Source: a virus
Direction: 5' to 3' (one strand)
DNA: 64,000 bases
Virus record (IMG/VR): IMGVR_UViG_3300028192_000001
Span: 1 to 64,000 of that record
Shown here: piece by piece, positions 39,704 to 63,998 of the stretch
Layout of the letters: every line of letters starts with the position of its first letter
How positions within the stretch are numbered: the stretch's first letter is position 1
Translations under genes and position numbers: made by a program
The notes under the pieces: model-generated
Databases searched by the model: none
What the model saw: only the letters and a program-made list of their open reading frames with translations
Told to the model about the DNA's origin: nothing

Positions 39704-41329
39704 TTACAGTTTAAGTACGCATTCTATTAGTTTTATACCACTATTATCACTGTCAACCATTGCTACTCCTACCATATGGGCATCAACATCTGCATTTTTT
39801 GATGCTACAGAATAATGATTCCATGGTAGTGCTACTCCTACTGTATCGCTTACGTAAACTGCGTCTCCTTTATTCACTTGTCCAATAACTTTTACTGGAA
39901 CCCTTCCTTTAAGTCCTACAATTTGTCCATTTGCATCAGCATTCATTAGATATGCTGGATTTTCTGATACAACACCAATTGGTATACTACCTAGTTGTGA
40001 AGCAGTTGCTTCTTTTTCACCACCTATACATATAACAGTACCTATAGGATACTCTTCATCAGTAAGATATTTTTCTGCCAAGTCAGCATATTGAGCCTGC
40101 GTAGCAATTGCGTGTACTACATTGGCTCTTAAATCAACCAAGTATCTGTCATTTAAATTATTTCCTGATCTAAAGGCTGTCCAGGCTCCGCCTGCGTTAC
40201 CGTGTGTAGTTGTACCATCATCTGCAAATGATTCATCCCAAACCCAAAATGCATCTTGTAAATTTGGGGATGACGGTCCTTCACCATCATCACTAGATGC
40301 TCCTCTATTAACTTGAAGTCCTGTAAAGTTTACTAAAGCATTAATTACTGATCCTGCTGGACCTTGCTTCATTCGAATCATGTTATCTTCAACATCTAAT
40401 GTTGATACTGATGTTGATACACTCTCAGCAGACGTTAATGTTCCTGTAACTGTTAAATCACCAGTGACTACCGTAGTATTTTCTAATTGTAACGTTCCAT
40501 TATTTGTATTATTTTTTAATTTTGCATCTAAACCAGATATTGTAAGTGTTAAATCACTATCTGCTCCAATTGTAACACCACTATCATTTATAACTCCTAA
40601 TGAACCACTGGTTGTATCATTAGCATCTGCTCTTAAAAATTGTGATGCTGAAATTGCCACTGAACCTATTGTATCATAAAGTCCTTCTGCTAATGTGGCT
40701 GTTCCTTGAAATTTGTTTCCTGCTAATGCAGACGATAATGTAATTCCTTTGTATACTGTAGAAAATCCTGCTGAAATTAATTCAGCACCTGGTGTACCAA
40801 CAGTATTTTTTGGTTGAAATTCTTCTGACGCTACAACATATATTATCGTATCACCAACAACACCTTTTAATACATTTTTATTTGTACCTAATGATGATTC
40901 AATTACTTCAGGCACCATTAACGTAACACCTGAGCCTGCAACTGATGTTGGACCAATTAAAACCCAAGTACTACCACTATAAACATATAATTGTGAATTA
41001 GTAGTATCAAACCACATATCACCTTTTACAGAACTAGTTGGTTGCGTTACAGTAGTTGTTGATCCACCTACTGGTTTCCATTTGGTACCAGTATAAACAT
41101 TTACTTGATTATTTGTCGCATCATACCAAAGTTGCCCTTTAACTTTGTTATCTGGTGCTGTTGTATTTGAGAAGTTTTCTAATAATTTTACAAAATTCTC
41201 ATTTAACTTTTCACCAAATCCTGCGTATCCTTTTCCAAATAATGAAATATCAGTAGTTGTAGTATCAATTGTACCATCTTTTAATATTACTACTGTTGCT
41301 CCAGTTGTATCGTTTATTGTATAAGACAT
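39704..41329 (-). CDS. tail fibre/baseplate-attached protein with C-terminal peptidase G2-like intramolecular chaperone
   Basis: N-module LFGKGYAGFGE..NENF..LLENF...GQLWYD; C-module AQYADLAEKY...GVVSENPAYLMN...GRVPVKV.G.V.KGD. Confidence 0.75.
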   Translation of the reverse strand: MSYTINDTTGATVVILKDGTIDTTTTDISLFGKGYAGFGEKLNENFVKLLENFSNTTAPDNKVKGQLWYDATNNQVNVYTGTKWKPVGGSTTTVTQPTSSVKGDMWFDTTNSQLYVYSGSTWVLIGPTSVAGSGVTLMVPEVIESSLGTNKNVLKGVVGDTIIYVVASEEFQPKNTVGTPGAELISAGFSTVYKGITLSSALAGNKFQGTATLAEGLYDTIGSVAISASQFLRADANDTTSGSLGVINDSGVTIGADSDLTLTISGLDAKLKNNTNNGTLQLENTTVVTGDLTVTGTLTSAESVSTSVSTLDVEDNMIRMKQGPAGSVINALVNFTGLQVNRGASSDDGEGPSSPNLQDAFWVWDESFADDGTTTHGNAGGAWTAFRSGNNLNDRYLVDLRANVVHAIATQAQYADLAEKYLTDEEYPIGTVICIGGEKEATASQLGSIPIGVVSENPAYLMNADANGQIVGLKGRVPVKVIGQVNKGDAVYVSDTVGVALPWNHYSVASKNADVDAHMVGVAMVDSDNSGIKLIECVLKL

Positions 41330-41332
41330 ATC

Positions 41333-41554
41333 CTACTCGACCTTTTCTATGCTAACTCTATTAGGGGCGCTAGTAGATTCGTTTTCCCTAATCTTTACCA
41401 ACCACCATACATCTCCTACTAGTTTAATCAACATAGTTGCTAATTGAGGATCTATGCTTTGTTGAAGTAAAGAAAACTCGCCGGGTGTCCAGAGTTCTTT
41501 TTCATCTATACTATTAATATAGTCTGATACGTCTTTTTTTGTAATCTCTGCCAT
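41333..41554 (-). CDS. hypothetical protein
   Basis: 73 aa, AGGAG RBS. Confidence 0.65.
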   Translation of the reverse strand: MAEITKKDVSDYINSIDEKELWTPGEFSLLQQSIDPQLATMLIKLVGDVWWLVKIRENESTSAPNRVSIEKVE

Positions 41555-41578: not shown

Positions 41579-42070
41579 CTATTTATTAGTGTTATGTTGC
41601 TTCTTGATTTGTTCTTCATCTGATATCCAATCCAAATTTTTGTATTTTTCACTTGTAAGATCTCTTAAAAATGTCTTAACATCACTTTCTGTAAGCGTCA
41701 TATTGTGATATTTAACATATCTTTTATGTAGTCCTTTTTCTTTTGTTGCAGTATATACTAACCTCATACCTTTAGATCTAGCAAGTTCCATTATAGCATC
41801 AATACACATTTTTAAGGATTTATGGGCGGTTCTTGTACGTAATCCACTATCACCTTCTGGTTCTTCAACTATAACCCATTCCATAAATGCAAACTTTGTA
41901 CCTACACCTATATACAATCCTCCACCACAAATAGGTGTACCATCATCACTTTCTACTATAATGCCATCAGGAGGTAAGCATTCCTTTGGTACTATACCAA
42001 ATTCCCATTGTTTCCACCATCGAACCAATGTTGAATAATCACTCTCTAGATTCCATTTTCTAGATTTCAT
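41579..42070 (-). CDS. GNAT-like acyltransferase fold protein (tentative)
   Basis: GIIVE..GTPICGGGLY..AFMEWV...IMELARSKGMRLVYT pattern resembles GNAT topology. Confidence 0.45.
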   Translation of the reverse strand: MKSRKWNLESDYSTLVRWWKQWEFGIVPKECLPPDGIIVESDDGTPICGGGLYIGVGTKFAFMEWVIVEEPEGDSGLRTRTAHKSLKMCIDAIMELARSKGMRLVYTATKEKGLHKRYVKYHNMTLTESDVKTFLRDLTSEKYKNLDWISDEEQIKKQHNTNK

Positions 42071-42084
42071 TATAAGTTATTTTA

Positions 42085-44271
42085 TTATTTTTTATTAATA
42101 AGGTCAACGACTTGTTCGGCAATTTCTTCATCTGTTTTATGATACTCACTAAAATATTCCTCACCTAACTTTTCAAGTCCTTTTTGTTCAAATCCATCAA
42201 AATAATCTGTAAACAATGTATCGTTTATTAAGATTCTTCTATTCTCACAACCAAACACATATACAGTATGATCTCCTGGACCTAATGATTTACCAAGTTC
42301 GCTATCTAGAACTCTGATCCATTTGGTATTTTCTTTAACCATATGAGATCCTGAAACTTTTATTCCTTTATAGTCATATAGATCATTAACTAAAAATTTT
42401 CCACAACCAAACACAAAACCACCAACGGCTACTTGATCTCTTAATGTAACTTCTTCTACTGGTTTTGTTGATCCATCTGCCATTGTAATTGGTGTGCCTG
42501 CAATAAAGCAACCTTTATTGTGTACAACATGACCATCAGCAATATATAAATTATCATTTGAAACATGGAAGTTATATAAAGGCATATCCGGATCGTTTAT
42601 TTCCTTTGATTTAATCTCTGTAATTTCAACCAAGCCACTATCCATCACAAGTTTGTCGCCAACTTTTAGTTCGCCTTTTAATTGATCATAAAGTTCAACG
42701 CCATCACGTTCTTTTGTTTTCTCTGGTTTAATTGATTTCCATCCTTCTTCTGTCATAAATGGATGTTCTGATGTAAAGAAATAATTCTCACTATCATTAA
42801 ATGCATATAATTTTCTATTTGATAATACTGTTGGATCAAGAGCAATAACTTTATTATCTCCATTTTTTCCTTTTACTATATCGCCAACTATAATATCTTC
42901 AATATTTTTATCTGTACCATCTGCCATACGAACCTTGGTACCTGCAATAAAACAACTACCGCCGCCACCAATTGGTCCGCTATAATTTGATGCCGAACCT
43001 GTTGAAGAAGTTCCATCGTCTTTGTCATAAAAACCATACTTTGCACTGGGATTCCATTGGTATTGACCAACTGAAGGAACTTGTGGACTATATTGACCAG
43101 TAGGTAAATTACCTGTTGCTTCATGTGGATTAACATAAGAAGGTTCGCTTGGAATAATTCCATCACCTTGGCCTCCACCTGCTTGATGCGGTGGTGCACT
43201 TGCAGGAACATTTTCTACAACTGGTGTTCCACCAGTTCCATCTGTTCCTGATGTTGATGCGCCTCCTATGTCTCCAAATCCATCAGCCATTGATGTAAAA
43301 ATAACATCACCACTAAACAATGCTTTCCATACCCCTGATACTTTGGTATATCCTCCAATTAATTTTTTCCATACACCTGCTACCTTATATTTCATTGTTG
43401 GCATTTTCTTCCATGTACCTCCAACTTTAAAAAATCCTTCTGCTGGTATATTAAAAACTACAATTGCTAATCCATCTTTACCTGCATGACCTTCTGCTCC
43501 GCCTATTGCAAGAGGATTTGTATAAGCAGTATAACCTAACACAGATGTAGGAGTTTGTTGTGGTGTTAATCCTGATCCACTGTTTGATGTTCCGCCTGCA
43601 GGTACTAAATTTCCTCCTGAGTACCCAGCATAGCCTCCCATATCTCCGATGTTACCCGAGCCACCTTTTCCGGCCTTGTTACCGCCTCCAGCGCCTCCGC
43701 CACCGGCACCATCACCTGTGTGTTTAGCACCATTTTCTCCTAAGTAACCTGGTGTATGTGCTGTTGCTGAATTTGTATTAAGGCCAGCACCCCCTCTTGA
43801 AGCCATTCCAGATCCACCTGCTCCGCCACCGCCACCAGCGATAGCAATTTTAATATTATCTAATGTTTGTCCCGATTCGTATAATGTAATTGTTGTGGCA
43901 CCTCCACCACCACCTCCAGAACCTGATGTTCCAAATGTACCCGATTTTCCACCGGTACCACCTGAATACCCAGTCATACCTTTTCCGTTGATACCACCTT
44001 GTGCAGTAGTTCCAGAAGATCCGCCACCAGCGCCGCCTCCAACAGCAACTACCATGCTTTTTTTACCAGCATATGCAGACATATCTATTCCTGTGGCTGT
44101 AACATATTGTCCTGCGGCCGCGTCTGCACCTTCTCCAGCATAATCTGAACCACCAGAACCTCCGGCACCGCCCCATAGATAAACATCTATTGATGCAACA
44201 CCAATTGGTATATGTGCTATTTGAAGTTTTCCTGTGTACTTAAAGACTTTAGTAATTGTAGTGATTGCCAT
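42085..44271 (-). CDS. glycine-rich tail adhesin-like protein with two tandem C-terminal Hint domains
   Basis: Polyglycine blocks, three KVxGxWK repeats, CFIAGT (Cys440)...FTSEHPF...VVHN (Asn585), KG, then second CFIAGT (Cys588)...SGSH. Confidence 0.8.
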   Translation of the reverse strand: MAITTITKVFKYTGKLQIAHIPIGVASIDVYLWGGAGGSGGSDYAGEGADAAAGQYVTATGIDMSAYAGKKSMVVAVGGGAGGGSSGTTAQGGINGKGMTGYSGGTGGKSGTFGTSGSGGGGGGATTITLYESGQTLDNIKIAIAGGGGGAGGSGMASRGGAGLNTNSATAHTPGYLGENGAKHTGDGAGGGGAGGGNKAGKGGSGNIGDMGGYAGYSGGNLVPAGGTSNSGSGLTPQQTPTSVLGYTAYTNPLAIGGAEGHAGKDGLAIVVFNIPAEGFFKVGGTWKKMPTMKYKVAGVWKKLIGGYTKVSGVWKALFSGDVIFTSMADGFGDIGGASTSGTDGTGGTPVVENVPASAPPHQAGGGQGDGIIPSEPSYVNPHEATGNLPTGQYSPQVPSVGQYQWNPSAKYGFYDKDDGTSSTGSASNYSGPIGGGGSCFIAGTKVRMADGTDKNIEDIIVGDIVKGKNGDNKVIALDPTVLSNRKLYAFNDSENYFFTSEHPFMTEEGWKSIKPEKTKERDGVELYDQLKGELKVGDKLVMDSGLVEITEIKSKEINDPDMPLYNFHVSNDNLYIADGHVVHNKGCFIAGTPITMADGSTKPVEEVTLRDQVAVGGFVFGCGKFLVNDLYDYKGIKVSGSHMVKENTKWIRVLDSELGKSLGPGDHTVYVFGCENRRILINDTLFTDYFDGFEQKGLEKLGEEYFSEYHKTDEEIAEQVVDLINKK
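42517..42954 (-). other. Hint (intein-like) domain 1, 146 aa, no homing endonuclease
   Basis: Block A CFIAGTKVRMADG, block B FTSEHPF, block F/G LYNFHV...YIADGHVVHN; residue after Asn is Lys. Confidence 0.85.
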
Positions 44272-44275
44272 GGGA

Positions 44276-45709
44276 TTATACCTCCCTTACAAACCAAAAG
44301 TCCCCGTCATTTCCGTCACCTGAGGTTGGCAAAGTTGTATTAACAAATTTTGCTGACCCTCCCCATAGGTTACCAAATGTAACAACGGCACCAGTGGTTG
44401 GTACGTTTAAGTTAGAAGTGTCGCCTTCTGCAATTGCTCCAACGGCACCTAATGTTGCTGTTGTAACTTTAACATTACCTGACGCATTTGTTTTTAATAC
44501 TTTTTCTTTATTAGTATGACCATCTACTGTGGCATCTGCTAATGTTATAACTTGAGAATATGCTTGATTTTCTCCAGCAACCCAATTATTTGTTGAAACT
44601 TGATAAAATAATCTTGCGTCATCTGTATCACTAGTTTCAGCAATTAATCCTGCGTCTGCTTCTGCGTTACCTGTGTTTACTTTAATAAATGCATCATCAT
44701 ATGTACTAACGTTTGAACTTGCTGTATCATGTTCTCCCGATACTGTTAGATTTCCTGTAATTGTTACATCACCTGTAAGTGCTATATTACCTGTTGTTCC
44801 TGTAATTGCTATTGGAGTTTTTGTTACTCCGCCATCATTAATTGTTACTGATAAATTTTTATCTTGTGATGGATTTCTTAGTATTACATGATTATTGCTA
44901 TCAACTTCAATTTCAAAATCTGACGTTGATCCTGTTGTTCTTCCTATGCTTAATTGATTTGATAACGATGCTACATCATTTTGTATTGTTAATGATCCTG
45001 CCATTGCGTCACTTGTATCTGCTCTTACAAAATTTCCACCTGCAATAACTGTTGCTGATGTATTTGTTGTGCTTGATACTTCAAGTGCCGCCGCCTGTGC
45101 TGACGATCCTTTAAAACTAGCACCTAATAAATTGTTTAATGTAATTCCTGGAAATATCTTTGGAAATCCTGTATTTGCGGCAAGCCACGTAGCATCAGGT
45201 GTAAATTCATTTTTTGATAAAATTGCAACTCTTGTATTTGCCGCATACATTGAAGAAACAACGTGTGTTCCTCCGTTATATGTTACTGTGTCAATTTTCC
45301 ATCCTGATTGTGTTTGTCCATCTGCCCATACTGGCCCAACTAATTTCCATGATGCTCCTGTATAAGCATAAACCTGATTGTCATCTGTATCTAACCAAAG
45401 ATCTCCTGTTGCAGAAGATGTTGGTTCTGTTGCTGATGCTCTTGCTCCACCTGTTGGTACAAAAGCAGTACCATTATATACTTTTATTGATCCTGCTGAT
45501 TCATCATACCAAAGTTCTCCTTTTACTGGAGCAACTGGTGCCGATGCTGATGCTGAATTTTCTAGTAATCTTACTAAATCTTCATTTAATGCTTCACCAA
45601 ATCCTGAATAACTCTTACCAAACAATATTAACGATGTTGTATTATCGATTGTACCGTCAGTAATTGTTGCTATTTGATCACCTTTTGTGTTATTGATATA
45701 GTATGGCAT
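44276..45709 (-). CDS. tail fibre/baseplate-attached protein
   Basis: Same N-module as the 39704 and 45724 genes; ends PTSGDGNDGDFWF. Confidence 0.75.
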   Translation of the reverse strand: MPYYINNTKGDQIATITDGTIDNTTSLILFGKSYSGFGEALNEDLVRLLENSASASAPVAPVKGELWYDESAGSIKVYNGTAFVPTGGARASATEPTSSATGDLWLDTDDNQVYAYTGASWKLVGPVWADGQTQSGWKIDTVTYNGGTHVVSSMYAANTRVAILSKNEFTPDATWLAANTGFPKIFPGITLNNLLGASFKGSSAQAAALEVSSTTNTSATVIAGGNFVRADTSDAMAGSLTIQNDVASLSNQLSIGRTTGSTSDFEIEVDSNNHVILRNPSQDKNLSVTINDGGVTKTPIAITGTTGNIALTGDVTITGNLTVSGEHDTASSNVSTYDDAFIKVNTGNAEADAGLIAETSDTDDARLFYQVSTNNWVAGENQAYSQVITLADATVDGHTNKEKVLKTNASGNVKVTTATLGAVGAIAEGDTSNLNVPTTGAVVTFGNLWGGSAKFVNTTLPTSGDGNDGDFWFVREV

Positions 45710-45720
45710 AATATTACCCT

Positions 45721-45728
45721 TATTTATA
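45721..45728 (-). promoter_or_regulatory. T4-type late promoter consensus TATAAATA
   Basis: Exact TATAAATA 11 nt upstream of ATG 45709; overlaps the upstream TAA stop. Confidence 0.5.
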
Positions 45729-47235
45729 GTCTCCCTACACTAATTAAAATGACACTTTCTTTCACGTCTTCTTTAGTTTCTATTGCTTTTCCTACAATAG
45801 ATCCAAGTACTGGAGACATGGCTTTTTTTGCACATCCTGGTTTATCACCTGCTGTTGTAAGCAAATCTCCTTTTGAAACTGTTCCATAAACTCTGCATTT
45901 TACTTTTCCTACAAGAGCAACTATTTGCCCTTCTTGATCTGTATTCATTAGATATGCTGGATTTTCACTAATAACTCCTGCAACTCTTGTGTCATTTGAT
46001 ATTGTTGATTGTGTAACTTCTTTACTACCTCCAAATATAACAACTGTACCTACTTGATAATTTCCATCTGATTCATACACCTCAGCCAAATCAGCATATT
46101 GAGCCTGACTTGCTGTTGTAGTTAAAATATTTGTAGATGGATTATAAGAAAGTCCTGCATCAGTAAACAATGCTTCGTTACCATTTACTGTTACAAATGT
46201 TGGATATACTGTTGTATCTTCTGTATCTTTTGCTGTAACCGTTACTTTTGTTGCAATAGGGGCCGTGCCTGTAATATCACCTGTAACGTTTCCAGTGAAT
46301 GCTCCTACAAATGATGTTGCTTTAATTGTGCCTGTTACATCAAGTTCAGCAGTTGGCGTTGAATTTTTAATTCCAATTCTACCTGTTGACCCATCAATCC
46401 TAAGCATTTCTGTTGCAGTTCCATCGACATTTGTTTTAAAAATTATATCTTTATCTTGTGTAACATTTTCAAGTGTAACATTATTTGAATCTACTTCAAT
46501 TTGAAAATCTTGTTGATCACCAATATGAATTCCATCATTAGTATCCAATGTTAACCTACCGGTCATTGTATCTGCCGCAGTGGCAGTTATAAATCCTGTT
46601 GCATCAATTCCACCAAGTGCATCTGCATTCGTGGCTGTGCCTTGAAACTTTACTCCAGTTATTGCTGTTGTTAAGGTTATTCCTTTTTTAACAGTACCAA
46701 ATCCTGTAATAGCAGTTTTAGGAGTAAATTCATTTTCTGAAATAACAGCAATTAAATTTGTATTATTCCAAAGTTTTGTAATTACTTGCGTTGCATCTGT
46801 ACTATCTGGAATAGAATCAAATGCAAATCCACTTGTACTTGATGACGATGGACCAACTAAAACGTGAGATGCTCCATTATAAAAATACAATTGGTCAGTA
46901 TCTGAATCGATCCATATATCACCTTGTGATGCCGACGATGGCTCAGAAGTTTGATAAACTGCTCCACCTAATGGTTGAAATAATACACCTGAATATACTT
47001 TTAATCTTTGTTTTGATTCATCATACCAAAGTTGTCCTGCAATTGGTTTATTCGGAGCAGTTGTATTTGCAAAATTTTCTAATAAATGTAAAAAGTCTTC
47101 AGCAACAATTTCACCATATCCTGAATATCCTTTACCTACAAAAGCAAGATCTGTTTCAGAATTTAAAATAGAATCTTGAACAATGTAAGAACTAACAGAT
47201 GCTGATGAATTGGTTTTATTTACTGTATAAGCCAT
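45724..47235 (-). CDS. tail fibre protein with C-terminal peptidase G2-like intramolecular chaperone
   Basis: Shared N-module; GRIGIKNSTPTAELDVTG fibre motif; AQYADLAEVY...GVISENPAYLMN...KGD. Confidence 0.75.
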   Translation of the reverse strand: MAYTVNKTNSSASVSSYIVQDSILNSETDLAFVGKGYSGYGEIVAEDFLHLLENFANTTAPNKPIAGQLWYDESKQRLKVYSGVLFQPLGGAVYQTSEPSSASQGDIWIDSDTDQLYFYNGASHVLVGPSSSSTSGFAFDSIPDSTDATQVITKLWNNTNLIAVISENEFTPKTAITGFGTVKKGITLTTAITGVKFQGTATNADALGGIDATGFITATAADTMTGRLTLDTNDGIHIGDQQDFQIEVDSNNVTLENVTQDKDIIFKTNVDGTATEMLRIDGSTGRIGIKNSTPTAELDVTGTIKATSFVGAFTGNVTGDITGTAPIATKVTVTAKDTEDTTVYPTFVTVNGNEALFTDAGLSYNPSTNILTTTASQAQYADLAEVYESDGNYQVGTVVIFGGSKEVTQSTISNDTRVAGVISENPAYLMNTDQEGQIVALVGKVKCRVYGTVSKGDLLTTAGDKPGCAKKAMSPVLGSIVGKAIETKEDVKESVILISVGRL

Positions 47236-60893: not shown

Positions 60894-63800
60894 TTAATAT
60901 CCAGTACCACTAACTGTCCCTGATCCGGTTGTAGTGGTTCCTGATACTACTGATGTTGACCTTGCTGTTGTCGTAGTAGTAGTGGTTGATGTTACAACTG
61001 TGCCTAATGCTTGGAGTTGATTTGCTCCAATGGCATCAATTATTGATACATCATCAACAGTGGCCCCACTAATGAATATTTCGTTTGATGCACCCGATAT
61101 TTGAAATAAAGATCCAAATACTTGTCCTGCTTGATTAGGCACAATTACAACTGTTAATAAATCTGGTGCAAGTCTATTATGAATGTGTGCCGCAAGTTCT
61201 GTAAAGTAAAAAGTATCACCAAAGTCAAAATTATCTAATGCAAAAAATTCATTAATTGCTTCTACAACCAATGTTTTTACTATCGCATTTGAAATATTTG
61301 TCCCTGTATTTTTAACAACTTTAAATGTTGCTTGATATTCTTCGTCTGCTTGAGTACCAAAAAGAATTTTATAAGATACAGAATGATAGATTATTTGATC
61401 TGACAATCCTTTTAACTCATCTAATTTTCCGGAATAATTTATTCTTAATTGGTCGGACGTACTAGAAGCAGGTCTTTTGCCTCCACTTTGTAACCATATT
61501 CTAAATAAATTATCATATGATCTTTCAAGTACATATAAATCAATTATATTAGATACCGAAGGATCTATTCTAGTATTACTTCCTGCAAAATGTTTATACT
61601 GAAAATACAAACTTCCTCTTCCTTTTCTTGCAAGATACTCTGTTGTTATAACTAATGAATTTGTTGTACTATCATATTTTTTAATTACATCTTCGGTTAA
61701 ATCGTAAAAATAAAATAATTGTCCATTTGTATATGACCCTGGTAATGTAATACTTGATTCGTTTTGAGCAATAACAAAATTTGTTGATGCATACGGTCTA
61801 TATCTTTCTATGTTATTATCTGTTGAAACATATTTTTCATAAAATACAAATTTTGTAGATTCACTTAAAGTTGGTTCTACTATAATATCAAATAATTCAG
61901 GATTATCTACAACTCCATCATCATCAGAATCATAAAATCCAACGTTAACTTTCCGATTATCTTGATAACCATCTGATTCACTAATTGTATCAACTATTTG
62001 CCATTCTAACGGATATCCTACTGCATATCCTGAACTAACAAGAACATTATTTTTTAACATAGTCACAGTATCTTTTTTAGTTTGTCCTGTTTTGTAATCA
62101 TAAATTTTTTCTTGTGGATCAAAATAAAATTTATTTTGTCCTGCTGATTCAAAAATATAATCTAATTTTCTATAAGTTACTGTATAAATTACGCCATCAT
62201 TAGTAAAATTAAACCACCAACTTTGATCTAAATTAGTGCCTGATTCATCTCCAGTGAATCCTAAACTAAACACTGAACTAGAACTTACATTTGTTGTTGT
62301 TATAACTTTCCATTCACCTTTTGTTTCATCATATCTTAATGCAAAATCTTCATATGCAGAAACTCTATCTTGAATATCTGTTTTTAATGTTGTACCAAGT
62401 ACTGTTGCTAATTGTGGGAATACTCCTTTTACAACGGCATTATCTGGAATAATATCTGCTATTGTAATTGGACCCACTCCTGATTCTAAATTTCCTACTC
62501 CACCATTTGCACCATCTCCTACAACTGTTGCTACTTTGGCCCATGATCTATCTTCTGCATTATCAGTACCTGCTGTAACAAATGCTCCATTTAAAAATTC
62601 TCTAGTATCTCCTGATGTAAATTTAATTAATGCTCCAGGTTTAACATATTTTAAATTACTAGTAGCATAGTCTCCTACAACTAACGGTCCACCTGCATGA
62701 ATGTATCCTGTGTTTGCATTGGTACTTGTTGTAGTACTATTCCAATATGTACCTAATACTGTAAGATCTTTTGTACCATACTTGTGATAATAAAATTGTC
62801 TTGAATATGCTTGTTTTAATTTCGATTCAACTTTAGTGTTTAATACATTTAAAATATCATTTTTATTTTTAAAAGTAAAAGTAAATGCTGGTGTTGTTTC
62901 TTCTCTATATAAAATTCCATCATCTGCAACAACATTTACATTAGAATAAGATCCTGTTGGATCAATTACTTCTTTTGCTCTTGATATTCCTGATGCTGTT
63001 CTATTAACTGATCTAATTTTAATAATTTCTTGCGATGCTGACAACGGAACCACATTATAATCTTCTGCTGTAATCATTCTATTTTGTGAATAATAAACTT
63101 GTGGTGCTTTTTCTTTAATTGAAAACGTTGTTTCAGATGTGGCTGAATTATAAATTGAATGCTCTAATCCTGTTGAAACTGTAAGAATTTGATTACCTCC
63201 ATTTTTATCTATATAAGGTATACTAAATTGTATGTTTTTTAAATCTAAAGGTTGAATACTATACTTTGCATTATCCGATGTTCTATAATATACTCTAAAT
63301 CTTCCTATTGGAAGATCTGCAAAATTTCCATCACCAAAAATTAATTCAATACTATCATCATTTTTTGTAACAACATTGTAAATGCTTCTAATATTTGCTG
63401 ATAATGAATTATAGATAACATTATTTCCTGATAAACTAGAAACTTGTTTCCATAATTTATATGGCGAGCCGAAATCATCAAGTTGCCATAACCACACATC
63501 ACTATCGTTTATATTATTAACATTAATTTGTTTAACTAAATTTGTTACTGCTTGATCAACTGTAAACTCTTCTGATGCTAAATTTCCTTGTTTAAACAAA
63601 GCAAAAAATCCTGTATTGTTTGATGAATCTCCTGCGCCATCTGTTCTATAAGCATATGAAAATCCACTTCCTGGAATTGGTACTGATTCATATATTACTT
63701 CTGCTTCTGCTATTGTTGCCGAAACTATTTCAAATTTCCTTGTAATACCACTTATTGATCTTGCAAATGTATAAATTGGAAGATCTGTATTCCTTGAACT

Positions 63801-63998
63801 TGTCATATAAATTTCTGTATCAATATTTCCAATTTTATCTGATTCTAATGGTGTTCCAAAAAGTTGTCCTGTTTGATTAACAGCATTTAATATATTAATA
63901 AAATGTTCTCTATAATTTGGATTTGCCGCATCATTCCATCGTACGGTCATACCTCCTAGATCTGTTCCAGCACTATCCTTAACATCTTCTGTTGTTGA
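60894..63998 (-). CDS. baseplate wedge subunit (T4 gp6-like), 5' end outside window
   Basis: Frame open to the window edge; LIFGDGNF...P.G, ETTFSIKEKAP..Y..QNRMITAEDY gp6-like motif. Confidence 0.8.
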   Translation of the reverse strand, partial: STTEDVKDSAGTDLGGMTVRWNDAANPNYREHFINILNAVNQTGQLFGTPLESDKIGNIDTEIYMTSSRNTDLPIYTFARSISGITRKFEIVSATIAEAEVIYESVPIPGSGFSYAYRTDGAGDSSNNTGFFALFKQGNLASEEFTVDQAVTNLVKQINVNNINDSDVWLWQLDDFGSPYKLWKQVSSLSGNNVIYNSLSANIRSIYNVVTKNDDSIELIFGDGNFADLPIGRFRVYYRTSDNAKYSIQPLDLKNIQFSIPYIDKNGGNQILTVSTGLEHSIYNSATSETTFSIKEKAPQVYYSQNRMITAEDYNVVPLSASQEIIKIRSVNRTASGISRAKEVIDPTGSYSNVNVVADDGILYREETTPAFTFTFKNKNDILNVLNTKVESKLKQAYSRQFYYHKYGTKDLTVLGTYWNSTTTSTNANTGYIHAGGPLVVGDYATSNLKYVKPGALIKFTSGDTREFLNGAFVTAGTDNAEDRSWAKVATVVGDGANGGVGNLESGVGPITIADIIPDNAVVKGVFPQLATVLGTTLKTDIQDRVSAYEDFALRYDETKGEWKVITTTNVSSSSVFSLGFTGDESGTNLDQSWWFNFTNDGVIYTVTYRKLDYIFESAGQNKFYFDPQEKIYDYKTGQTKKDTVTMLKNNVLVSSGYAVGYPLEWQIVDTISESDGYQDNRKVNVGFYDSDDDGVVDNPELFDIIVEPTLSESTKFVFYEKYVSTDNNIERYRPYASTNFVIAQNESSITLPGSYTNGQLFYFYDLTEDVIKKYDSTTNSLVITTEYLARKGRGSLYFQYKHFAGSNTRIDPSVSNIIDLYVLERSYDNLFRIWLQSGGKRPASSTSDQLRINYSGKLDELKGLSDQIIYHSVSYKILFGTQADEEYQATFKVVKNTGTNISNAIVKTLVVEAINEFFALDNFDFGDTFYFTELAAHIHNRLAPDLLTVVIVPNQAGQVFGSLFQISGASNEIFISGATVDDVSIIDAIGANQLQALGTVVTSTTTTTTTARSTSVVSGTTTTGSGTVSGTGY

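What the first reader, a model, noticed from the sequence alone, without database searches (positions are those of the whole stretch)
42085..44271. Glycine-rich adhesin ending in two back-to-back Hint domains
Seen: polyglycine N-terminal domain, three KVxGxWK repeats, flexible linker, GGGGS|Cys440-Hint1-His584-Asn585, a Lys-Gly spacer, then Cys588-Hint2, which lacks a terminal HN and continues into an acidic helical tail. Hint1 has no +1 Cys/Ser/Thr and no endonuclease. Established: such BIL/Hedgehog-type Hints cleave or transfer the N-terminal part to an external nucleophile rather than splice canonically. Inference: the adhesin C-terminus is activated as a thioester and ligated to a small molecule, glycan or another virion protein; alternatively Hint1 is a later insertion ahead of Hint2 (their first codons are similar).
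Basis: partly seen in the sequence, partly recalled or inferred. Interest (0 to 1): 0.75.

Follow-up and report, generated by a model that had tools for sequence, protein, structure and literature searches.

The report
Mobile Hint inserted before fibre-end Hint
A tail-fibre-cluster protein of an uncultured jumbo phage ends in a widespread, undescribed self-processing Hint module that always travels with a small partner gene, and in this allele a second, mobile intein-like Hint has been inserted just in front of it.

Summary

The two Hints are not equivalent.
- Hint2 plus tail (last 141 aa) is the ancestral end of the protein. It is a complete minimal Hint fold (Z 14.8 to Tetrahymena BIL2). Cys1 and the block-B His are invariant. 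An invariant Asp occupies the place of the intein terminal Asn.
- This module ends at least 1,250 protein clusters with unrelated N-termini, usually after a poly-Gly linker. A homolog of the 163-aa ORF at 41579-42070 lay downstream in all 63 Hint2+tail loci that held enough downstream DNA.
- Hint1 is an optional, mobile, type-A-BIL-like mini-Hint (Ser at -1, Lys at +1). Near-identical alleles differ only by its clean indel. Its dS is lower than that of its flanks in nearly every locus pair. It also sits before other C-terminal modules in unrelated phage proteins.

The N-terminus is a TNF-like/polyglycine receptor-binding-type domain.

Autoprocessing through thioesters is likely. Ligation to an acceptor is plausible but untested. 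This scan noted related modules on other DNA. I found no paper or curated family describing them.

The parts
42085..44271 (-). Whole ORF, 728 aa (P0001), in a co-oriented tail-fibre/baseplate gene block
43447..44271 (-). Residues 1-275: TNF-like plus polyglycine (ALK/LTK 'TG'-type) domain, the fold of phage fibre tips
   Evidence: AF2 model pLDDT 81, pTM 0.83. LTK/ALK Z 14.7, Pam3 fibre Z 13.7 (rmsd 2.5/169), Bxb1 tail tip Z 13.7; next unrelated hit Z 3.4. Pfam Gly_rich_2 is below its cut-off.
43297..43446 (-). Residues 276-325: three 14-residue KVxGxWK beta-hairpin repeats
   Evidence: phrog_25859 over residues 280-320
42955..43296 (-). Residues 326-439: Gly/Ser/Pro-rich linker of variable length, ending GGGGS
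   Evidence: composition; length varies between orthologs
42517..42954 (-). Hint1, residues 440-585: optional, mobile type-A-BIL-like mini-Hint. Cys440, Thr500-x-x-His503, His584-Asn585.
42514..42516 (-). Lys586: the +1 residue of Hint1 (Lys in 85 of 91 distinct Hint1 contexts)
42511..42513 (-). Gly587: the ancestral -1 Gly of Hint2 (G|CF, as in Hint1-less alleles)
42202..42510 (-). Hint2, residues 588-690: minimal complete Hint fold. Cys588, Ser640-x-x-His643 and Asp689 (at the position of the intein terminal Asn), followed by Tyr690.
42088..42201 (-). Residues 691-728: conserved helical tail that always accompanies Hint2
41579..42070 (-). 163-aa partner ORF ('p163'), 14 nt downstream. Strictly linked to Hint2+tail genes. 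Invariant Cys48. GNAT-like fold is only weakly indicated.

Best explanation
The gene encodes a fibre-tip-type protein: an N-terminal TNF-like/polyglycine receptor-binding-type domain, three beta-hairpin repeats and a long flexible linker. Its ancestral C-terminal end is a 141-aa self-processing unit, Hint2 plus a helical tail. That unit works together with the small protein encoded just downstream (p163). Cys588 attacks the Gly587 carbonyl (a G|CF junction, as in Hedgehog) and forms a thioester. The thioester detaches the fibre part from the module, either by hydrolysis or, probably with p163, by transfer to a nucleophile. In this allele a second element, Hint1, has been inserted between the linker and Gly587. 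Hint1 is a mobile, endonuclease-free, type-A-BIL-like mini-Hint. It most likely removes itself in three steps: an N-S shift at Ser439-Cys440, cyclisation of Asn585, and attack of an amine of the conserved Lys586 on the thioester (BIL-type splicing, with cleavage as a side reaction). This restores a linker-Lys-Gly-Hint2 substrate. Shown here: the anatomy, the folds, the conservation of catalytic residues, the insertion polymorphism and mobility of Hint1, and the gene linkage with p163. Inferred: all the chemistry.
For: Folds. Hint2 superposes on BIL2 at Z 14.8, on the C. thermocellum BIL at 13.8, on inteins at about 13 and on Hedgehog at 12.5, each over about 100-107 residues. A Hint1 profile hits solved BILs at E 2-3e-7.

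Catalytic residues. In 203 distinct Hint2+tail sequences Cys588, His643 and Asp689 are invariant and Tyr690 is 96% conserved. In Hint1, Cys1, Thr61, His64 and His145-Asn146 are invariant.

Spread. 1,252 representative clusters match Hint2+tail at E<=1e-3. The module is almost always the last 141 aa of proteins of 180-1,800 aa. Gly is at -1 in 85 of 135.

Hint1 is optional. Of the best 120 homologs, 60 have Hint2 only, 29 have Hint1+Hint2 and 17 have Hint1 plus another end. At least 7-10 gains or losses are needed on the N-terminal-domain tree. The window's nearest relative (82% identity) lacks Hint1. P0002 and P0036 are about 98% identical apart from a clean Hint1 indel.

Hint1 is mobile. It is 74-85% identical to this copy in unrelated host proteins. 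Its dS is lower than that of Hint2+tail and p163 in nearly every locus pair, mostly 1.5- to 5-fold.

All three parts are under purifying selection (omega 0.06-0.7, mostly 0.1-0.4), including Hint2 and p163 in Hint1-bearing genes.

Linkage. A p163 homolog lies downstream in 17 of 17 Hint1+Hint2 loci and 46 of 46 further Hint2+tail loci with enough DNA (45 of them Hint1-less). It is absent from 18 Hint1+other-module loci and 8 no-Hint loci.

Precedents. Type-A BIL aminolytic splicing (PMC4031507). BIL2 forming an isopeptide to Lys (PMC8616854). An optional BIL between the conserved and variable parts of MafB (PMC4436062).
Against: No biochemical data exist for any member. The cassette model is only moderately confident: mean pLDDT 65, with Hint1 at 40-80. 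The equivalence of Asp689 with the terminal Asn rests on aligned ranges, not on a residue-level alignment. If Hint1 merely cleaved, Hint2 and p163 would be bypassed; their conservation argues against that, but repeated gain and loss of Hint1 weakens the argument. p163 has no significant match to any curated family or solved structure. Virion incorporation of the protein is inferred from gene context only.
Confidence: 0.6

Rival explanations
1. Pure self-cleaving propeptide. Hint2+tail, and Hint1 redundantly, only help the fibre part fold or assemble. They are then cut off by thioester hydrolysis, like the C-terminal intramolecular chaperone of other fibres. Nothing is ligated, and p163 is an assembly chaperone.
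For: Neighbouring fibre genes in the same block end in self-cleaving chaperone-type domains (PHROG tail-fibre hits over the C-termini). Type-B BILs are reported only to cleave. Rare zero-Hint forms exist (P0311, P0321). Non-Hint C-terminal modules can replace Hint2.
Against: It does not explain why a separate partner gene is strictly tied to Hint2+tail. It does not explain the conserved 38-aa tail or the invariant Asp689-Tyr690. It does not explain how a protein whose receptor-type domain is N-terminal would remain attached to the virion after losing its C-terminal end.
Confidence: 0.3
2. Polymorphic-toxin-like cassette. Hint1 acts as a pre-toxin Hint that releases variable C-terminal effector modules. 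Hint2+tail is one such module and p163 is its cognate immunity or neutralising protein.
For: Hint1 sits immediately before at least nine different C-terminal module types in unrelated phage proteins. That position matches HINT peptidases just before toxin domains (PMC3482391). There is a weak Pfam PT-HINT match. p163 follows one module type only.
Against: Most Hint2+tail genes have no Hint1 at all. None of the modules matches a known toxin family. Loci with the other modules show no comparable small downstream gene. Hint2 keeps a full autoprocessing residue set, which an effector would not need.
Confidence: 0.07
3. The Hints are inactive structural relics that serve only as folded domains at the fibre end.
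For: No activity has been measured. Pfam scores for PT-HINT, Hint_2 and Hint are below the gathering cut-offs.
Against: The nucleophile Cys and block-B His are invariant in hundreds of diverged sequences, and omega is well below 1. The one variant seen with Cys1 replaced (P0045) also carries a large insertion.
Confidence: 0.03

Closest known systems
Type-A bacterial intein-like (BIL) domains, e.g. the Clostridium thermocellum BIL (PDB 2LWY), and the optional BIL of Neisseria MafB
   Same: Hint1 is a roughly 140-aa mini-Hint with Cys1, block-B TxxH and a terminal His-Asn. It has no +1 Cys/Ser/Thr and no endonuclease. It is optionally present between a conserved N-terminal part and variable C-terminal parts. 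A Hint1 profile matches 2LWY at E 2.3e-7.
   Different: Hint1 occurs in phage structural proteins. It has a nearly fixed Ser at -1 and Lys at +1, followed by a Gly-rich spacer. Here it is inserted directly in front of another Hint. It scores below the Pfam PT-HINT cut-off.
BIL2 of the Tetrahymena thermophila BUBL1 polyubiquitin-like locus (PDB 6Y75, 6TMM)
   Same: It is the best structural match of Hint2 (Z 14.8) and a full-length sequence match of Hint1 (E 3e-7). BIL2 activates the C-terminus of the upstream domain without ATP and joins it to a Lys side chain. That is the chemistry proposed here.
   Different: There are no ubiquitin-like domains here. The upstream part is a fibre-tip domain on a poly-Gly linker. 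Hint2 has Asp, not Asn, at its end. A separate partner protein is linked to it.
Hedgehog C-terminal autoprocessing domain (Hint plus sterol-recognition region, PDB 1AT0)
   Same: Both share a G|CF junction and a Hint fold without a terminal His-Asn. In both a C-terminal extension follows the Hint. Hedgehog transfers its N-terminal part from a thioester to an external nucleophile. Hint2 matches it at Z 12.5 over 102 residues.
   Different: The tail here is short, acidic and helical, with no evidence of sterol binding. Hint2 is viral and has an invariant Asp-Tyr at its end. The Pfam Hint family is not matched by Hint2.
Type-B BILs / Pfam Hint_2
   Same: Hint2 sits near the C-terminus and lacks intein block G. 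The expected reaction is cleavage uncoupled from splicing.
   Different: Hint2 gives no Hint_2 hit at all; only Hint1 gives a weak, partial one. The fixed 38-aa tail and the partner gene are not features described for type-B BILs.
Pam3 gp24 / S16 gp38 / ALK-LTK TNF-like plus glycine-rich domains
   Same: The N-terminal 275 residues have this fold (Z 13.7-14.7). In Pam3 gp24 it is the receptor-recognising tip of the fibre (PMC9608196).
   Different: Here the domain is at the N-terminus with no docking helix before it, and the chain continues into repeats, a linker and Hint modules.

Membership tests
Hint (Hedgehog/intein) fold superfamily | Complete Hint beta-fold with an N-terminal nucleophile and a block-B His | tested here: met
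   Hint2: Z 12-15 to BILs, inteins and Hedgehog over about 100-107 residues; Cys588 and His643 invariant. Hint1: profile hits to BILs and inteins; Cys440, Thr500 and His503 invariant.
Canonical (class 1) intein | Cys/Ser/Thr at +1 to accept the N-extein | tested here: not met
   The +1 residue of Hint1 is Lys586 (Lys in 85 of 91 contexts). Hint2 is followed by Tyr690.
Canonical (class 1) intein | Terminal His-Asn | tested here: met
   Met for Hint1 only (His584-Asn585). Hint2 has Thr688-Asp689 at the corresponding place, judged from the aligned ranges.
Type-A BIL | Hint with a terminal His-Asn but no +1 nucleophile | tested here: met
   Hint1; definition taken from PMC4031507.
Type-A BIL | Significant sequence similarity to established BILs or the curated PT-HINT model | tested here: inconclusive
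   The profile matches 2LWY at E 2.3e-7 and BIL2 at 3e-7. Pfam PT-HINT scores 20.4 bits against a cut-off of 27.7.
Type-A BIL | Autocleavage or aminolytic splicing activity | not testable with these tools
   Needs expression and mass spectrometry.
Type-B BIL / Pfam Hint_2 | No similarity to intein block G | tested here: met
   Hint2 ends in F-T-D-Y with no His-Asn.
Type-B BIL / Pfam Hint_2 | Match to the Hint_2 model above its cut-off | tested here: not met
   Hint2+tail gives no Hint_2 hit up to E = 1.
Hedgehog-type Hog domain | G|CF cleavage junction and a Hint followed by an adduct-recognition extension | tested here: met
   Gly587|Cys588-Phe589. Gly is at -1 in 85 of 135 family members. 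A conserved 38-aa tail follows the Hint.
Hedgehog-type Hog domain | Transfer of the N-terminal part to a bound nucleophile (a sterol in Hedgehog) | not testable with these tools
   There is no sequence similarity of the tail to any family.
Polymorphic toxin system | A recognisable C-terminal toxin domain with a cognate immunity gene for each toxin type | tested here: inconclusive
   The C-terminal modules match no Pfam or PHROG family. Only Hint2+tail has a type-specific downstream gene.
TNF-like plus glycine-rich (ALK/LTK TG, Pfam Gly_rich_2) domain | The fold, and a match to the curated model | tested here: inconclusive
   The fold is met (Z 14.7 and 13.7). Pfam Gly_rich_2 scores 15.6-17 bits against a cut-off of 24.3. 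Several homologs carry PF21722 in precomputed tables.
GNAT acetyltransferase fold (for p163) | Match to a GNAT model or structure | tested here: inconclusive
   Acetyltransf_1 at E 0.012-0.04 in 3 of 15 homologs. Atlas neighbour clusters carry PF00583 in 12-19% of members. No PDB sequence hit.

The most novel reading that the evidence does not exclude
Hint2+tail together with p163 is an ATP-independent protein-ligation system with ubiquitin-like logic. The Hint turns the poly-Gly C-terminus of a virion protein into a thioester. p163, which has an invariant Cys48 and possibly a GNAT-like fold, passes the acyl group to an amine. This would covalently tether an adhesin whose receptor-binding domain is N-terminal to the virion, or to a host or envelope molecule. 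The inserted Hint1 would be a BIL that splices through its conserved +1 Lys.
Probability: 0.25. Interest if true: 0.9.

Novelty: new variant of a known kind. Interest (0 to 1): 0.7.

Why it matters
Self-processing Hint domains are known from inteins, Hedgehog, bacterial toxins and ciliate polyubiquitin-like loci. I found no description of them as a routine end-piece of phage fibre and tail proteins. Here a single 141-aa Hint+tail module closes more than a thousand diverged protein clusters from uncultured phages and is genetically locked to one small partner protein. That points to a common, unstudied way of maturing, and possibly covalently attaching, virion proteins.

The tandem arrangement gives a natural experiment. 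The same gene exists with and without a mobile BIL, so it should be possible to test whether BILs splice or merely cleave in their native context. If ligation is confirmed, the pair would be a compact, ATP-free protein-conjugation tool.

Tried and rejected
- Canonical intein reading of Hint1: rejected. The +1 residue is Lys, and the spacer before the next Cys varies from 1 to 17 residues.
- Recent duplication of Hint2 giving Hint1: rejected. Only the N-terminal halves align, at 29% identity. The shared first residues are the general Hint block A.
Their comparison is at protein level only.
- p163: there was no significant Pfam, NCBIfam or PDB sequence hit, and PHROG gives only an unannotated family. 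The GNAT idea stays a lead.
- The other C-terminal modules (Cys-led helical types) matched no Pfam or PHROG family, and their Atlas neighbours are viral hypothetical proteins only.
- Deposited phage genomes: tblastn with the whole protein found only a 31%-identical Hint1-like stretch in Achromobacter phage 2-1.
- GTDB species genomes: a single MAG contig matched.
- The own 91-kb record, estimated 25% complete, holds no second Hint1 or Hint2 copy.
- Literature: no paper holds both 'intein-like' and 'tail fiber'. The Hint mentions in phage papers that I read concern terminase inteins.
- A toxin/immunity reading was considered and is kept only as a minor rival.
Full report
OBSERVATION. The feature is a 728-aa ORF on the minus strand, 42085..44271. 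The plus-strand reading of the same coordinates is full of stops.
- Cys440 follows GGGGS.
- His584-Asn585 are followed by Lys586-Gly587 and then Cys588.
- KVxGxWK occurs three times, 14 residues apart (282, 296, 310).
- Gly makes up 29% of residues 1-290.
- The linker is Gly/Ser/Pro-rich and the last 38 residues are acidic.
Pfam sees Hint-type families, with Hom_end_hint at E 8.7e-14 in two stretches. The more specific models (PT-HINT, Hint_2, Hint) stay below their cut-offs.

CONTEXT. The window is part of a 91-kb viral record estimated to be 25% complete. Its GC content is 32%. The baseplate wedge protein at 60894-63950 is about 32% identical to those of jumbo myoviruses such as Atu_ph07, SCTP-2 and PA5oct. 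The ORF lies in a tightly packed, co-oriented block of genes. These are fibre genes at 39704-41329, 44276-45709 and 45724-47235, a 4,304-aa protein, and the baseplate wedge.

N-TERMINAL PART. A model of residues 1-330 (pLDDT 81, pTM 0.83) matches three groups of structures:
- the TNF-like plus glycine-rich domain of LTK/ALK (Z 14.7, rmsd 3.6 over 189 residues);
- the cyanophage Pam3 fibre (Z 13.7, rmsd 2.5 over 169);
- a Bxb1 tail-tip protein (Z 13.7).
The next, unrelated hit scores Z 3.4. In Pam3 gp24 this domain pair is the receptor-recognising fibre tip (PMC9608196). 'Adhesin' is therefore a fair label. Unusually, though, the domain is N-terminal here.

THE TWO HINTS ARE DIFFERENT THINGS. 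I cut the protein into segments and compared each with the 120 best homologs. The homologs fall into four groups:
- 60 have the N-terminal part followed directly by Hint2+tail.
- 29 have Hint1+Hint2+tail.
- 17 have Hint1 followed by a different C-terminal end.
- 14 have other N-termini.
Rare forms stop after the linker with no Hint at all (P0311, P0321). Forms with three or eight tandem Hints also exist.

Hint2+tail is the ancestral module. A search of 1.84 billion cluster representatives with the last 141 residues gave 1,252 hits at E<=1e-3 and 510 at E<=1e-10. The match is almost always the final 141 residues of proteins 180-1,800 aa long. The residue before the Cys is Gly in 85 of 135, usually at the end of a poly-Gly run.

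In the cassette model (mean pLDDT 65, but 80-89 over Hint2), residues 585-691 superpose on whole Hint domains:
- Tetrahymena BIL2: Z 14.8, rmsd 1.6 over 107 residues.
- C. thermocellum BIL: Z 13.8.
- Mini-inteins: about Z 13.
- Hedgehog: Z 12.5.
From the aligned ranges, the intein terminal Asn corresponds to Asp689.

Across 203 distinct family members, Cys588, Phe589, His643, Glu647, Trp651 and Asp689 are invariant. Tyr690 is 96% conserved, and the tail keeps a recognisable pattern. No PHROG or NCBIfam model covers this module. Pfam touches only its first 27 residues, below the cut-off.

Hint1 is an optional, mobile insert.
- On a tree of the N-terminal domain, Hint1 presence needs at least 7-10 changes.
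- The window's closest relative, P0031 (82% identity), lacks Hint1.
- P0002 and P0036 are about 98% identical along the N-terminus and along Hint2+tail. They differ by a clean 148-aa indel plus about ten changed linker residues.
That comparison also resolves the 'Lys-Gly spacer'. Lys586 belongs to Hint1 and Gly587 is the old -1 Gly of Hint2.

Viral contigs hold Hint1 copies 74-85% identical to this one near the C-termini of unrelated proteins of 445-1,891 aa. There Hint1 is followed by at least nine kinds of short C-terminal module.

In 91 distinct contexts the -1 residue is Ser in 82, the +1 residue is Lys in 85 and the +2 residue is Gly in 75.

In pairwise comparisons of the same loci, Hint1 dS (0.15-1.1) is lower than the dS of the adjacent Hint2+tail and p163 in nearly every pair. 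The ratio is mostly 1.5- to 5-fold and narrowest in pairs with the window, L005 and L008. Omega is 0.06-0.7, mostly 0.1-0.4, for all three. Hint1 has therefore moved between genes more recently than the genes diverged, and it is kept functional.

A Hint1 profile matches the solved type-A BIL 2LWY (E 2.3e-7) and BIL2 over its full length (E 3e-7). Hint1 and Hint2 are only distant paralogs.

A PARTNER GENE. A note from this scan on another genome (e1-5753592) led me to test the 163-aa ORF that lies 14 nt downstream (41579-42070). I searched every fetched locus for its homologs with tblastn:
- present downstream in 17 of 17 loci with Hint1+Hint2+tail, which have several unrelated N-termini;
- present in 46 of 46 further Hint2+tail loci with enough downstream DNA, 45 of them without Hint1;
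- absent in 18 loci where Hint1 precedes another module;
- absent in 8 loci where the same glycine-rich protein ends in a Cys-led helical module directly after poly-Gly.
In one large clade an Asp/Asn beta-hydroxylase-family gene and a short-chain dehydrogenase gene sit between the Hint2 gene and the partner. Neither is present in this window.

The partner has an invariant Cys48 and a conserved N-terminal half. A GNAT-like fold is only hinted at.

MECHANISM (INFERRED).
- Hint2+tail has the residues for an N-S acyl shift at Gly587-Cys588.
- The G|CF junction, the lack of His-Asn, the C-terminal extension and the dedicated partner all resemble Hedgehog-type transfer or BIL2-type ligation more than splicing. 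BIL2 is documented to join the upstream C-terminus to a Lys side chain without ATP.
- Hint1 fits the definition of a type-A BIL. These cleave, and can splice when the amine freed by Asn cyclisation attacks the N-terminal thioester.
- Hint2 and p163 stay under purifying selection in Hint1-bearing genes. I therefore think Hint1 mostly removes itself and leaves linker-Lys-Gly-Hint2. The nearly fixed +1 Lys would supply the amine.
- Whether the final product is a free Gly carboxylate or a conjugate is open. I put ligation at roughly one in four to one in three.

COMPARISON AND NOVELTY. The parts are members of known kinds: the Hint fold, a type-A-BIL-like element and the TNF-like/polyglycine fibre tip. 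What I did not find described in papers, in curated families or in deposited phage genomes is fourfold:
- the Hint2+tail module as a general end of phage tail proteins;
- its obligatory partner gene;
- the fixed Ser/Lys flanks of the mobile Hint1;
- the stacking of the two Hints.
This scan has flagged related Hint ends on other DNA, so this window is a further, particularly informative instance. It is informative because it carries both elements.

LIMITS.
- There is no biochemistry for any member.
- The confidence of the Hint1 model is modest.

Noticed in passing
L052:5418-6639 (and about 40 further loci, L053-L097): In the large Hint2-only clade, an Asp/Asn beta-hydroxylase-family gene (PF05118, E 1.4e-10) and a short-chain dehydrogenase gene (PF00106, E 9e-9) lie between the Hint2+tail gene and the p163 homolog. 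Neither gene is present in this window.
   Followed up: partly
L098:4001-5401, L099, L101-L105: The same glycine-rich fibre-tip protein can end, directly after a poly-Gly run and with no Hint, in a Cys-led helical module of about 115-150 aa (e.g. ...GGGGGGG-RVICT..., or ICTKLHELGYL... with a hydrophobic C-terminal helix). The same module types follow Hint1 in other proteins. Their function is unknown and no family matches them.
   Followed up: partly
protein P0045 (660 aa): A Hint2 variant has Cys1 replaced by Trp and an insertion of about 120 aa, carrying a ParB-like DGSHR motif, between the two halves of the Hint. This is the position where inteins carry homing endonucleases.
   Followed up: no
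protein P0282 (1,285 aa); L020:3630-7289 / P0051: Some proteins are built of up to eight head-to-tail Hint1-type domains joined by ...VHN-K-G-|C...; another has three Hints in a row. Tandem Hints joined by Lys-Gly are therefore a recurring arrangement.
   Followed up: no
window 41333-41554 (-): A 73-aa ORF follows p163. It is conserved only in the two closest orthologous loci (L001, L002) and has no family match.
   Followed up: partly
window 39704-41329 (-) and 45724-47235 (-): Two flanking fibre genes share an N-terminal module with 44276-45709. Their C-termini match PHROG tail-fibre families, consistent with self-cleaving chaperone-type ends. The block therefore uses at least two kinds of C-terminal processing module.
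   Followed up: no
window 42085-44271 (-): GC content is 45% in the glycine-rich N-terminal part and the linker, but 31-32% in both Hints. The difference is largely a codon effect of Gly-rich sequence.
   Followed up: no
L106 (CAYGPG010000016.1, MAG labelled Micavibrio): This was the only hit to Hint2 among 185,579 species genomes. It is a 45-kb contig of a metagenome-assembled genome, possibly a binned phage contig.
   Followed up: no
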